Position numbers and translations under genes: made by a program. A model generated the notes under the pieces. That model made no database searches and had not been told where the DNA came from. It saw only the letters and a list, made by a program, of their open reading frames with translations. From Amoebidium appalachense (lineage: Eukaryota; Protista; Ichthyosporea): a DNA stretch of 64,000 nt. Positions 18,101-42,100 of this stretch are shown here, piece after piece (the first letter of the stretch is position 1; each line of letters starts with the position of its first letter). The stretch spans positions 9,861,355-9,925,354 of the forward strand of contig CAVNZM010000006.1 of the NCBI GenBank assembly GCA_963693365.1, given 5' to 3'.

Positions 18101-21100
18101 TCTGGCTTCAGGTGCAAAGGACGGTGAACGTTATAGCATCTTGTGGGCATGCCTTGCAGCTTCCCACTTGGCCGTAATGAAGGGAACCTTCTAATCAACA
18201 CACACACTCTTTTGCTTTGCTAATCTATTCATTTGTGGATGCTACTGTTTTCTGTTTCCCTCCTATCCTCCCTTTTCCTTCCTTCTCTCCTTTCCTTCCT
18301 TTTTCCTTTTTCTTTTTGCATGTGTTCATGTGTGTGTGTGTGGGTGGCACGGTGCGGTGGGGGAGTAGGGATTTGGGGTGGGTGAGTGGGGGGGACCTGT
18401 GATAAGCTGTTCGAGCTTGCGGCGCAGCACGGGGGGCTGGGGGGTAAGAACCGTGTCGGCCAAAAACGTGAGGATGGCCTCTACGTTGGCCTCCACCTGC
18501 CCTAGAGTCTTGCCTCCATTCTTAAGCGCCTGTTGGGGTGACAGTGGTCAGAGTGTCGACTAGGTGAACGACAGGTACTGTGGGTGGAGAAGGAGCCCGC
18601 GGAAAAAAGATGGGGAGCGGGGGAGGAGGCCCCGAGGGGGGGGGGGGGGGGGGGGTTTAGAACAGGGTATTCGAACATGTACTTGAGGCAAAAGCCAGAA
18701 GTTACGACGGCCAATAGGCAGGGGCAAATGTGTTGCGTGACTAATTGGTTCCCAGCTCATGTAGCCACAATGACCGACTATCCGTGTGGTATTGCGACAC
18801 AGATCTAAATATATGAAAAAGTGCACACATACGCATTTATGTAGGGGTGAAGATGGATGTTAGGGATTGCCTGAGGTGTGAAGTGGAGGAGTAGACCAAC
18901 CACAAAAGCGAAGGGTAGGGTATGTGTGGTGTGGTGTGGGGTGGTGCAGTGGTGTTGGGTGGGGTAGGGACGGACGGGTTGTGTTGTGTGTTGTGGTGCG
19001 GTGTGGTGTGTTCTGGGTTGGGGGCGGGGGGTTGGGGAGGGTTTGAATGCAAAATACGGCACGAAGTACACGGGGGGGGGGGGGGGGGGGGGGGGGTTGA
19101 ATGCGAAATACGGCACGAAGTACGTGGGGGGGGGAGGGGGGTGTCTCACCTCCTCGACGTTGTGGGACCATGCCACCTGGGCCGAGAGGCTCACCAGCTG
19201 AGATGGATACTGGTCCACCCACTAGAGCCCAAACACGTGTAAGTAAGCACAGGTAGAGCAATGCTGCCGCATCCATGAAATCTCATTCTCCAATATGGCT
19301 CAAGTAGACAGGTGTCTACAGAGAGAGAATAACATGTGCAAACACACCACCGGGCGGGGGAATGGGGGGGGGGGGGCTCTGCTACCTAGGGAATCTAAAA
19401 TACCACATAGATGTTGCCAGCTCCCAAGCGCAGCCCTAACTGCAAGCTGCACCCAGAAACAGCCCAAGAACACCAACTTGGACACTTTGCACGGTGTAAA
19501 GAGTATTAGCAGGTTTCTTCCACCCACCTGCAGATACTGAGGGCCGTCAAACTTGTCGGCCGTGAACGTGGTAACCTGCACAGTGTCACGTGTGAGCACA
19601 CGAAACCATCTAAAGGCACACGACTGCAAAACCAACAACAGTGACTACATCTGCTTGGCCCTACACGTAAATGAGGAGTATTTATCATGCCGAATTAATG
19701 AACCACGGACTCTTCGTGCTCTGCATTTAATCGACTATGCCCCCCCCCCCCCCCCCCCCCCCCCCCCCCCCCCAAAGCACACACACACACACACATACAC
19801 TCCTCCTTCCCTCACCCCAAGAAACAATAACAAGTGAAAAAAAGATCACAGAAATAAATAATACGAAACCAAACGTATAAGCAACCAAAAAAACACAAAA
19901 CGCCAAGAAGAAACGCATATGTACAGGCGGCTGATAGGTTTTTAAACGGCCACCAGTGCACACCTTTTCGACGGCCTGGGCCAGCAGGTGGGCCAGTGAC
20001 AGTCTCATCTGCTGCTCGATCAGCAGCAAATACGTGTTGATCTTGGGGTTCTCCTGCACAAACACATACAGTCAGCTCCTGCCACACCCAAGCCTCCCCT
20101 CCCCCCCATCCCCACCCTCTCCCCCCTCCCCCCCCCCCCCCCCCCCCCCCCCAAAAAAAAAAAAAAAAAAAAAAAAAAAAAAAAACACACACACACACAC
20201 ACACACACACACACCAAAAATCCATAGGGCCTGTGCCATGAGTCACAAACACAACCCACTACAAGAGTGCTTCCACTCCACAAGGCTAAAACGCACACGG
20301 GCGACAATAAACTTGGTTTGCCTCTCTCTACTTGCTTTTCTTCACCTGATATTATACCTCCATCCCTGGCAAAGACTGCATGCAGGTCAGTCATGTGTCA
20401 TTCAAATAGAAGAGACAGAACACGGTTAACACAGGCCAGTATACGAACACCATCGTGTGGGTGTGTTATTGTGTGCAAATGGGAAAAAGGAGGGGGAGGG
20501 GGATACCTTGATGTTAACGGGTTTGACAAAGCGGACCTCCTCACCCTCTTTAGAGGCCATACCCAGAACCTGCCAATAGACCGGGTGACCACTGTGCCCA
20601 GGAAACAAAAACAAAGCACCACACCATCCGATTTTATTTGCTCAGCCACTGAGGTTCAGAGCTGTGCGCAATGCCGTTACAGAGGTAAGGAGGAGGTCAC
20701 CAGAAAACAAGCAACAGCATTAGACATTCACGACCGACAACAACATACAAATTCTGCACAGCACACACAAAGAGCCAGCCAGCGTCATAAGCAGAGCTCA
20801 TTCTCATTAGAGGGCCCAAATGCTCCACTGTACCCACAAGGCGCCCGGCAAGGGGGGGAGGGGGGGGGGGGGGGGGGAGGGGGGGGGGTTGCAGACCTCT
20901 GTCTCGTCCTCGTTCAGCAGCACGAGGTGGATGCCCGCAAACATCTTGCGGAAGTGCTTCTGCAGCTTGCTGATGTCCTGTGGCCCCCATCCCATCAGAA
21001 CACTTCAGCACCAATGTGCGGGTACCAAGAGCCGATCCTGATAGCTCTTCCTCCTTCCTCCTGCCACTCCCAAAACCCCCCAACTCACACACCCCACAGC

Positions 21101-39100: not shown

Positions 39101-42100
39101 AATGTAAATTACTAAGCGCGCTTCAAGGATTTGCATCGGAGGTAGGGGGGACCGTTTAGATATCACGTCATCTCAACTTGAAAGGTCAACCTATCTTAAT
39201 TGGACACAGGCAGGGTTACCGGGGGAAGGGGGGGGGGGGGGGTTGAATGCGGAACACGGTACGAAGTACGCATACACGATGAGAAGCATGGTGCAGGACA
39301 CATGCAAAGGCAAACATTCAAGTATGCAACATTAGCCATGCGCACAGTATGCGTCATAAGCAGAGCCCATCCTCAGGGGGGGGGGGGGGGGGGGGGGGGA
39401 AGCATGTGGCGTGTGTGTGCTTTGTCTGTGTGCGCGCGTGTATGTAGTATGTGCATGTGCAAATGCTTTTGCCTCTGCATGTGTGTGCCTTAGTGCATGT
39501 GTGCTTTGTGTATATGTTTTGTGTTTCGTAAGTGCAGATGCCCGTGTGGTGTACATGTACGTATGTGTGGTGTACATGCATGTCGGTTTAGGTACCGGGA
39601 CCTGTGCAGAAGCGTTTTGGTGCTGTGGATAAGCATATGCAATGGATTCGTGCACATGCCTGTGAGTGTTGGAAACAGCGCCAGGGGGGGGGGGGGGGGG
39701 GGGGCTGACCTCAGCCAGTTTTGCCTGGATGAGGGGATGGATGACCAGGCGCACATCTGGGATCTCTGCATCCTGCTGCAGGTTGAGCAGGGCAAGCTCG
39801 AGGTCTGCCAGCTGCCGCTTGACGGGCCCTGCACGTGCATGTGTGTGAGCCACACGCTGGGTGCATAAGTCCCCACGGCAGACACCTACACACCAGCACA
39901 AGCCTACTCTCCCCACCTCCCACGCATTCCCACCCCCTGCCTCCCACCCTGCCCTTCCCTTCTCTTTCCCACTTCCTGCCCCCCCTTCCCTCCCCCCCCC
40001 CCCCCCCCCCCTCCCCCACCACCACCACCACCACCACCACCACCACCACCACACACACGCGCGCGCGCGCGCACACACACAGGGAATCCCTCCTCCGAAG
40101 AACCCCTTTCTGGCAAAAAAAAAAAAAAAAAATTGTTACTCTCTTTCCCCTAGGAAGAGTTGCATATGTAGGGGGAACGCGGGAAAAGGGGGGGGGGGGG
40201 GGGGGGGGGGGGGGGGGGGGGGGGGGGGGGGGACTGTGGTATATAGTGTCAAGTATTTACATACACCAGGTAACAGTGATGCTGATGTGCAAGAACTTGC
40301 AGGCACGTAAAAACATAAACCTAAGTAGCCCCCATCCTCCCCCCGGCGGCGGGGGGGGGGGGGGGGGGGGGGGGGGGTGATGTATGCGTTAGAGGGTTGT
40401 AAATATGGAGGAGACAACAAAGAGCAACGACAAAGCGTCACAAAGGTGGGAAATCCAAAATCAAACAATTAAAGCGTGCAGGCAGAAGACACGGGGGGGG
40501 GGGGGGGGATTTTAAGTAGGTCACACTAAGTCCTTTAAACTCACCGAGTTTCGTTTTGTCAGCCTGCTGGGCAGTGGTGGTGACGAATGAAGTGACAAAG
40601 GGGGAGACGGCAGCATGAATATAGTCGTGCAACATCTCAATAGGGGCCTGCTCGTCAAGGTCCAGCACACGCACCTGAGTCTTGATCGGCCGCTCCGTCT
40701 GCTCACCCCCAGTCCATGTGGTTCAATATTCGTCTAGAGGTGTGCATTGTGTTCGAAGTGGCTTATTCTGAGGGTTAGGGGGAGTGGAAGGGGTGTACAG
40801 CGTGGAGAGGAGTGCATGTGCATGTGTGTGTGTGTGTGTGTGTGTGTGTGTGTGTGTGTGTGTGTGTGTGTGTGTGTGTGTGTGTGTGTGTGTGTGGTAT
40901 TTGTGCCACTGTTGTGTGTGGGTGTACATGCGTGCATGTGCGTGCGTGTCCGTGTGCACGTGCGTATGTGTTTATTTGTGCCTGTGTGCACCCCTCGTGC
41001 GCGAGCACATGTGTACGTGTGATCTCTGTGATACTCGTTTAAGCGTGCCCCTGTGGGTGTGTCTACAGATGCGCAAGTGGGGCTCTTAGAGAACGGGGTG
41101 GATAGGTGCATAGGTGGATGCCTGGGTGGGTCGTTGCATAATCGCTTTGGTAGATCGGTGGTGTGGTTGGGTTCACGGATGGGTGTGGGTGGGTGAGAGG
41201 GGTGCATGGGCAAAAGCACAACTGAATGAGCGATTGGTTGCCTGGGGGGGAGGGGGGGGGGGGGGGGGGGGGTGCCATAGAGTACGAAATACATATTCAC
41301 AACGGGCAACACAATTTGGAGTGCAAACCACACATTAAGATTATGGCATAATACGCAGGGCCCATCCTCGGGGGTTGGTGGGCTGGGGGTTGGGGGGGAT
41401 AGGGGGGAAAGCGAGGCAGGGGGGGGGGGAGGGGGGAGGGAGCAGGCAGGAGAAGGGGGAAGGAGAATCCTAGGGGGGGGTGGCTGGGGGGGGCGGGGTG
41501 GTTGGTACAGGTGGGTGGGAGGGTGGGTGCACGGGGGGGGGGGGGGGGGGGGGAGAGTCCGGGCAGGGGGGGGGGGGGGGAGAGTCCGGGCCGAGCGAGG
41601 GGGAGAGGGGGGAGGTGGGTGGGGGCTGGGGGGGGGGGGGGGGGGGGGGGGGGGGGGGGGGGGGGGGGGTGGTGGAGGGGGGTGTGGCGTGTTGCTGCAC
41701 ATAAGTGGGTGTGTTAGGATCAGGTGATGGGCGATTGGGTTGGTGAGCGGGTGGGTGGGTGGTTGGGTGGGTAGGTGGGTGAGTGGGTGGGTGGGTGGGT
41801 GCGTGGGTGGGTGCGTGGGTGCGTGGGTGGGTGTGTGGGTGCAAGGGTTGGCGGGTGCGTGGGTGGGTTGTTGGGCATGTGGTTCCATTGGGTCCGTTGG
41901 TGAGTGTTAAACAGACGGGACAGTCGGGTGGGTTAATGGTGGGTGGTTTGATGCGTGTCTGGAAGGATTCGTGGGTGGGTGGGCGAAAAGGAAAGCCAGT
42001 GGGTCATAATATGCCAAACTGTTCCCGCCTGTGCCTGACCAACCACATGCCTGTCCACACCAGTCTGCCCCACACACACACCTCCAACACGGCCTGCTTC

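What the first reader, a model, noticed from the sequence alone, without database searches (positions are those of the whole stretch)
19043..41369. Unclassified short element that lives only between poly-G tracts, always in one orientation
Seen: four long copies (28045-28175, 33076-33180, 39243-39375, 41273-41369) and three left-end fragments (19043, 19097, 22361). They share a left end TTGAATGC...GTACGAAGTAC and a right end ATAAGCAGAGCCCATCCTCA. Every copy has G runs on both sides, all read the same way on +, and all lie in dynein introns. The ends are conserved while the middle differs in length and sequence (copy C vs A/B). I see no poly-A tail, no Pol III A/B boxes, no distinct TSD, and only a weak terminal inversion (TGAATG...CATCCTCA). 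Inference: conserved ends with a free middle suggest a non-autonomous mobile element that either targets G homopolymers or generates them at its ends. It does not fit the SINE, MITE or solo-LTR patterns I can recognise. A conserved intronic RNA family is the alternative.
Basis: partly seen in the sequence, partly recalled or inferred. Interest (0 to 1): 0.8.

Follow-up and report, generated by a model that had tools for sequence, protein, structure and literature searches.

The report
Truncated retroelement targeting poly-C tracts
These short repeats are variable-length pieces of a very abundant mobile element that sits next to G/C runs, likely the 5'-truncated tail ends of a Penelope-type retrotransposon like the Chlamys elements of green algae, so probably a new member of a known kind in a new lineage rather than a new class.

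Summary
The copies are real, but the 'two conserved ends, free middle' model is wrong. Only the left end (G-run|TTGAATGC) is a terminus. The 'right end' CATCCTCA is internal: copies A, C and a missed copy run on past it, and contigs of public runs run on past copy C's end at 33279. Copies stop at many points (21-204 bp), often at the internal GGG. The family is genome-wide (929-5,246 contigs laid per DNA run; roughly 10^4 copies, inferred) with two subfamilies. A minus-strand copy at 48103-48189 refutes 'one orientation'; orientation follows the G-run strand. Read on the minus strand this is a fixed 3' end (...GCATTCAA) on (C)n with variable 5' truncation, the signature of target-primed reverse transcription into homopolymers. 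The closest known case is Chlamys-9/N4 Penelope-like elements of Chlamydomonas: (C)n target, intronic, median 128 bp. The host dynein groups with the ichthyosporean Sphaeroforma, outside the host list I read for Chlamys. No canonical hammerhead and no Rfam match.

The parts
19042..19071 (-). f1: 30-nt 3'-terminal stub, in tandem with f2 across a G25 run
19097..19125 (-). f2: 29-nt 3'-terminal stub between G25 and G9
20721..20850 (-).
   Evidence: (nhmmer E 0.0013)
22360..22380 (-). f3: 21-nt 3'-terminal stub between G17 and G25
28046..28208 (-). A: subfamily A/B copy, 163 nt, after G40; true far end 28208, not 28175; in intron 27874-28219
33076..33279 (-). C: subfamily C/D copy, 204 nt, between G24 and G30; longest copy in the window; other loci continue beyond its end
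33151..33187 (-).
33199..33260 (-). Predicted long hairpin within C, stronger on minus (-21.9 kcal/mol, z -4.5) than on plus (-10.8, z -2.5); region picked after seeing it
39243..39375 (-). B: subfamily A/B copy, 133 nt, between G15 and G24, cut at the hot spot
41273..41370 (-). D: older subfamily C/D copy, about 98 nt, after G21, cut at the hot spot
48103..48189 (+). F: opposite-orientation, internally deleted C/D-type copy outside the dynein gene, flanked by G-rich DNA in its own orientation (C26 at 48070-48095 on +)
138..42200 (-). Host gene: intron-rich cytoplasmic dynein-1 heavy chain (approximate span within the window)

Best explanation
The copies are variable-length pieces of one high-copy family with a single fixed end at a G run, likely the 5'-truncated 3' ends of a Penelope-like retrotransposon of the Chlamys type (or its non-autonomous partner) inserted by target-primed reverse transcription into (C)n/(G)n homopolymers. 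Shown: the fixed end, the variable other end, G runs on both sides, genome-wide abundance, two subfamilies and orientation tied to the G strand. Inferred: the RNA is the minus strand, ending ...GCAUUC-A(0-3). An endonuclease nicks the G strand of a run, the G-ended 3'-OH primes cDNA, and synthesis usually stops after 20-250 nt. The cDNA rejoins the rest of the run most readily at the element's internal GGG, which creates the false 'right end', and any target duplication is hidden in the homopolymer. Confidence is about 0.85 for a truncated target-primed retroelement and 0.55 for Penelope specifically.
For: Far ends fall at 21, 29, 30, 87, 98, 133, 163 and 204 nt while the near end is constant. 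Summed contig depth stays at 4.3-7.5e5 in X1 over 33200-33271, well past the 'right end'. 22 X1 and 38 X8 contigs continue past 33279 with one shared sequence, while 75 X8 contigs switch to poly-G at 33187; one search shows the same at 28178/28180 and continuation at 28193/28208. Contigs laid: 929/1,415/2,093 on A (X1, X7, X8) and 2,133/5,246 on C (X1, X8), against one contig (depth 18-22) on the unique flank in X1 and X8. 12 of the 14 listed pieces that reach 33079 or further left run 8 or more letters into the G run (32 of 7,704 pieces listed, longest first, so biased). Head-to-tail joints back to the fixed end, mostly through G-rich spacers, occur in X1, X8 and X10 (tables 5 and 5c) and in X7, and as f1+f2. 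The terminal T count varies 0-3. The hairpin is more stable on minus through G-U pairs. Literature match: Chlamys-9/N4 give intronic, (C)n-targeted, 5'-truncated insertions of median 128 bp (PMC9977147 section 7); Chlamys show (C)n targets, no discernible TSD, partial tandems and no canonical hammerhead (PMC8557442).
Against: No RT or endonuclease was seen: none in the 96 + 15 window ORFs scanned outside the copia element, and no genome is held. No sequence likeness to described Chlamys was shown; two short motifs are absent from the paper's supplement. The Chlamys host list I read has no opisthokont. Depth does not fall steadily to the right, so a short element of fixed length ending just beyond 33310 is not excluded. 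A true pLTR or inverted 5' copy was not shown (one opposite-strand joint only). No empty site was seen. Copy E lacks the left G run. Strand assignment is indirect; whole-copy folding z-scores are near zero.
Confidence: 0.55

Rival explanations
1. The pieces are 3' ends of a non-LTR LINE, or of a SINE it mobilises, whose endonuclease prefers (C)n/(G)n; same target-primed mechanism, different enzyme.
For: 5' truncation with a fixed 3' end is equally a LINE trait (established knowledge). Two subfamilies keep a 3'-terminal motif and an internal block, as SINE/LINE pairs do. Depth stays high to 33271, which fits a short element of a few hundred bases.
Against: No poly(A) or tandem-repeat tail of its own (0-3 A). 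No tRNA, 5S or 7SL match in the part held. My searches listed no (C)n-targeting LINE/SINE, while (C)n targeting is documented for Chlamys.
Confidence: 0.3
2. A rolling-circle (HUH) DNA element, Replitron- or Helitron-like, with a fixed origin end inserting after GG and aborted copying giving variable far ends.
For: Replitron-1 inserts in one orientation, with its left end just downstream of RG (PMC10288648 passages). A conserved GTAC-GAA-GTAC mini-hairpin lies 16-27 nt inside the fixed end on +.
Against: De novo Replitron copies were essentially full length with extra fuzzy ends, and were under-represented in introns. RG alone would not confine copies to long runs. No CTRR end or A|T / T|T site as in Helitrons (recalled). 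The hairpin is broken in D, f1 and f2.
Confidence: 0.08
3. A conserved intronic RNA family, or a local duplication product that generates its own G flanks.
For: Element-matching contigs occur in the probable RNA run X9.
Against: Thousands of contigs genome-wide, stubs of 21-30 nt, no Rfam match at gathering score and only E 0.27-4.6 noise. 144 homopolymer runs exist, mostly without a copy.
Confidence: 0.03

Closest known systems
Chlamys-9_cRei / Chlamys-N4_cRei Penelope-like pair of Chlamydomonas reinhardtii (PMC9977147 section 7; PMC8557442)
   Same: (C)n target, intronic location, very short 5'-truncated insertions (median 128 bp there; 21-204 bp here), no discernible TSD, head-to-tail copies, no canonical hammerhead; the Chlamys-9 consensus also has a long non-coding 3' part (seen by eye).
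   Different: Host is an opisthokont whose dynein groups with Sphaeroforma; no sequence likeness shown; enzyme not seen; about 10^4 copies inferred.
Naiad Penelope-like elements of animals (PMC8557442)
   Same: 5' truncation, microsatellite targeting, tens of thousands of copies; some carry only hammerhead half cores near the 3' end, as the CUGAGGA block here may be.
   Different: Listed Naiad targets are mostly (TA)n, none (C)n; hosts are animals.
Non-LTR retrozymes (bioRxiv 10.64898/2026.07.22.740005, first 10,000 characters read)
   Same: Short non-coding repeats thought to be mobilised by Penelope-like elements.
   Different: Retrozymes are tandem arrays with a complete type I hammerhead per unit and avoid introns; neither holds here.
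Replitron-1/N1 (PMC10288648, passages)
   Same: One fixed end placed after RG in fixed orientation; variable other end.
   Different: Terminal direct repeats, near full-length insertions, intron avoidance.

Membership tests
Chlamys/Naiad Penelope-like elements | ORF with N-terminal GIY-YIG endonuclease, CxC motif and Penelope RT with IFD | not testable with these tools
   No genome and no long copy in the window; no RT or EN in the ORFs scanned outside the copia element.
Chlamys/Naiad Penelope-like elements | Fixed 3' end with frequent 5' truncation | tested here: met
   strand assignment inferred.
Chlamys/Naiad Penelope-like elements | Insertion in (C)n with no discernible TSD | tested here: met
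   8 of 9 window copies G-rich on the left; 12 of 14 listed left-reaching contig pieces enter the G run.
Chlamys/Naiad Penelope-like elements | Partial tandems forming pLTRs | tested here: inconclusive
   f1+f2 and head-to-tail joints could also be repeat insertions into one run.
Chlamys/Naiad Penelope-like elements | Sequence similarity to described families | tested here: inconclusive
   Only two short exact motifs were searched in the supplement, 0 hits; no alignment was run.
Canonical hammerhead / retrozyme | CUGANGA - stem II - GAAA - stem III - NUH | tested here: not met
   CUGAGGA plus a 5-bp hairpin in A, B, C (3 of 6 copies scanned) but no GAAA after it; in C a GAAA lies 34 nt upstream. 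Rfam Hammerhead_1 gives 14.2 bits against a cut-off of 34, E 2. Only 204 nt of the element were available.
SINE (tRNA/5S/7SL-derived) | Pol III head at the 5' end | not testable with these tools
   5' end not in hand; no match in the part held.
L1-type LINE/SINE | Poly(A) tail and distinct TSD | tested here: not met
   0-3 A at the fixed end; homopolymer flanks.
MITE / solo LTR | Two fixed termini (TIR or TG..CA), uniform length, TSD | tested here: not met
Helitron (features recalled, partly) | CTRR 3' end and insertion in A|T or T|T | tested here: not met
   Insertion in G|G; terminus TTGAATGC / GCATTCAA.
Replitron | Short direct repeats at both termini | not testable with these tools
   Far terminus unknown.
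Rfam RNA families (snoRNA and others) | Match at gathering score | tested here: not met
   0 in the window; best E 0.27 on C, 2 on A.

The most novel reading that the evidence does not exclude
The driver is neither a Penelope nor a LINE enzyme but an undescribed integrase or HUH nuclease that recognises G-run (quadruplex-prone) DNA, copying a structured RNA or single-stranded DNA into thousands of intronic C tracts next to splice sites of a unicellular relative of animals. A milder and likelier version (about 0.4) is a Naiad/Chlamys-clade element in a unicellular holozoan, bridging the algal (C)n-targeting and animal branches.
Probability: 0.07. Interest if true: 0.7.

Novelty: new member of a known kind. 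Interest (0 to 1): 0.3.

Why it matters
If the driver is a Chlamys-type Penelope element, it would extend (C)n-targeting Penelope elements from green algae, plants and slime moulds to a unicellular relative of animals. It would also give a very high-copy system for studying how an endonuclease picks homopolymer targets and why reverse transcription aborts after 20-250 nt. About one copy per 7-10 kb, many near 5' splice sites, makes it a real contributor to intron sequence in this genome. The mechanism class is already described, so the surprise is modest.

Tried and rejected
No whole genome was held, so ends, flanks and empty sites could not be tabulated on an assembly. Exact-motif scans found nothing: viral contigs, metagenome contigs, genome contigs. 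Rfam at gathering score and ARAGORN found nothing. The repeat finder was swamped by homopolymers. Hammerhead: type I, II and III arrangements of CUGAGGA, GAAAC and the 33199-33260 hairpin were tried by script and by hand and none closes a canonical core. CTGANGA is rare by chance (about 0.4% per 30 nt of one strand), but it was noticed after the fact. Whole-copy folds are not significant (z -0.9 to +0.3). Older decayed copies after G runs (40233, 39047, 61276) do not clearly exceed controls. No RNA holder is on record; X9 holds a spliced dynein contig and element-matching contigs, but contigs cannot show level or strand, so transcription is not claimed. X7 lacks cover on A's flank, which proves nothing. 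No empty-site joint was seen, and the stretches laid lacked two unique flanks. Two-colour-chemistry poly-G artefact was rejected: runs occur on both strands and track gene orientation. Earlier findings by sequence and place gave nothing. Literature searches for a prior description: Ichthyosporea + Penelope + retrotransposon: 3 papers, none relevant by title; 0 papers; 2, on L1/Alu; 0. An ichthyosporean genome paper (PMC11244446, passages only, supplements not read; not claimed to be this window's source) has 0 mentions of Penelope, SINE or Helitron in its main text. Dfam and Repbase were not available. A search with a published Chlamys protein was not run, which leaves open whether this genome encodes one.
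Full report
Setting. No genome is held for this window. The window is eukaryotic. A cytoplasmic dynein-1 heavy chain gene with dozens of short exons runs on the minus strand from about 42.2 kb to the window start (PDB matches to human dynein-1 residues 577-613 and 128-169). 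In a FastTree tree of 797 columns with 24 references, the window protein groups with Sphaeroforma arctica at support 0.98. No choanoflagellate, filasterean or amoebozoan was in that tree, so 'unicellular holozoan, likely ichthyosporean' is an inference. Homopolymers are everywhere: 100 G runs and 44 C runs of 9 or more, 81 to 28 inside dynein, meaning poly-C on the sense strand.

Observation check. The seven pieces are there. A (28046) and B (39243) are 94% identical, C (33076) and D (41273) 78%, and the two subfamilies share the near-end motif and a 30-nt block at 93%. A profile search found two more: E at about 20721-20850 (E 0.0013) and F at 48103-48189 on the other strand (E 0.0054; blastn E 2.7e-6 to C). 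F has G-rich flanks in its own orientation, in a region where C runs dominate on +. Orientation therefore follows the G strand, and 7 of 7 on + within dynein is unremarkable (P 0.12-0.23). The tie to G runs at the left end is strong: 8 of 9 copies have at least 10 G in the preceding 15 nt, and 6 of 9 directly follow a run of 9 or more; 0.65% of non-G positions follow a 12-of-15 G stretch. E is the exception.

The right 'end' is internal. In the window, A and C stay alignable past CATCCTCA (77% over 77 nt, to 28208 and 33213) and E does too. Laying Logan contigs of public runs on 28046-28600 gave 929, 1,415, 2,093 and 79 contigs (X1, X7, X8, X9). Summed depth on the element was 3.6-9.2e5 in X1 against 22 on the unique flank. 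Loose ends behind 28193 match what follows the block in copy C, loose ends behind 28208 continue the A type, and loose ends behind 28178-28180 are G-rich. Laying on 33064-33291 gave 2,133, 5,246, 140 and 134 contigs (X1, X8, X9, X10). Depth peaks at the shared block (1.25e6 in X1) and stays at 4.3-7.5e5 to 33271. 22 X1 and 38 X8 contigs continue past 33279 with one shared 30-letter consensus, and 75 X8 contigs turn into poly-G at 33187. The right-hand G bins have depth of only 181-583, the left-hand G bin 3.7e4-1.7e5 (X1, X8). So the element is longer than 234 nt, has one fixed end at a G run, and is often cut at its internal G tract. The tool warns that summed depth is no copy number. My estimate of about 10^4 (10^3 at the least) rests on the contig counts, on depth ratios of 2-4 x 10^4 before correcting for overlap, and on 9 copies per 64 kb.

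Mechanism. Read on minus, each copy ends ...GCATTC-A(0-3)-(C)n and begins at a variable point 21-204 nt upstream, usually after another C run. G runs flanking arbitrary cut points, and more than 130 runs with no copy, argue that the runs are pre-existing targets split by insertion rather than tails. The simplest route (inferred) is target-primed reverse transcription: a nick on the G strand, priming at the RNA 3' end, early termination, and rejoining helped by G microhomology at the internal tract. Head-to-tail joints back to the fixed end (from 33162, 33183, 33186, 33204, 33207 and 33219; similar; f1+f2 in the window) fit partial tandems or repeated use of one run. A hairpin at 33199-33260 is twice as stable on minus as on plus (z -4.5 vs -2.5), weak support for the minus strand as the RNA; the region was picked after seeing it, and whole-copy folds are not significant. 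The most conserved block reads CUGAGGA plus a 5-bp hairpin about 105-135 nt from the 3' end, where Penelope hammerheads lie (supplement table). It lacks the following GAAA, so a canonical hammerhead is not met; it resembles the 'half core' noted for some Naiads.

Comparison. PMC9977147 section 7 describes the Chlamys-9/Chlamys-N4 pair as giving very short insertions of median 128 bp through 5' truncation, all intronic, following their (C)n target. PMC8557442 (passages, sections 9 and 10, supplement parts 1, 2 and 31) lists (C)n for many Chlamydomonadales families, undetectable TSDs, partial tandems, non-autonomous partners sharing 3' ends and no canonical hammerhead; its Chlamys hosts are green algae, spike mosses and Physarum. 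PMC11167929 (passages) supports target-primed synthesis by a Penelope protein in vitro. So this element works like Chlamys. Membership is untested, because the defining ORF could not be reached: no RT or endonuclease in the window ORFs scanned outside the copia element and no outside loci. A LINE/SINE with the same target (0.3) and a Replitron-like element (0.08) remain rivals.

Against my reading. No enzyme, no empty site, no proven pLTR and no sequence likeness to Chlamys were found. Depth does not decay smoothly, so a short fixed-length element is possible, and E lacks the G flank. The best DNA runs may include the sample behind the window and are not independent support for the locus, but they do show the family across the genome, and X1, X7 and X8 carry three different organism codes.

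Verdict. Interest 0.3.

Noticed in passing
window 51981-55546 (+): Young Ty1/copia LTR retrotransposon: 305-bp LTRs 99.7% identical, 5-bp TSD GCAGA, gag/protease and integrase ORFs out of frame, no RT domain seen.
   Followed up: partly
window-wide, e.g. 687-727, 20128-20185, 38985-39046, 55716-55943: Compound homopolymers are strictly polar: (C)n(A)n 10 times, (T)n(G)n 7 times, the six other orders tested 0 times. It may reflect G-to-T change at the 5' side of G runs followed by slippage (inference).
   Followed up: partly
e.g. window 2293, 6443, 19135-19150, 33310, 39705: Poly-C tracts often begin a few bases after 5' splice sites on the sense strand (GTCAG then C run recurs), so element copies sit close to donor sites.
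   Followed up: no
joint 33214 to 33204 in runs X1, X8, X10 (table 5c): One locus carries a 29-nt insert of telomere-like CCCTA repeats inside the element.
   Followed up: no
window 40233-40340, 39047-39137, 61276-61334: Weak element-like segments directly after G runs (nhmmer E 0.35-6.8); possibly old copies, not clearly above controls.
   Followed up: partly
window 60168-61277 (-): Exons of a Sel1-repeat gene.
   Followed up: no
window 4083-4195 and 37780-37885: Short local duplications (38 and 26 nt); the first lies between C runs.
   Followed up: no
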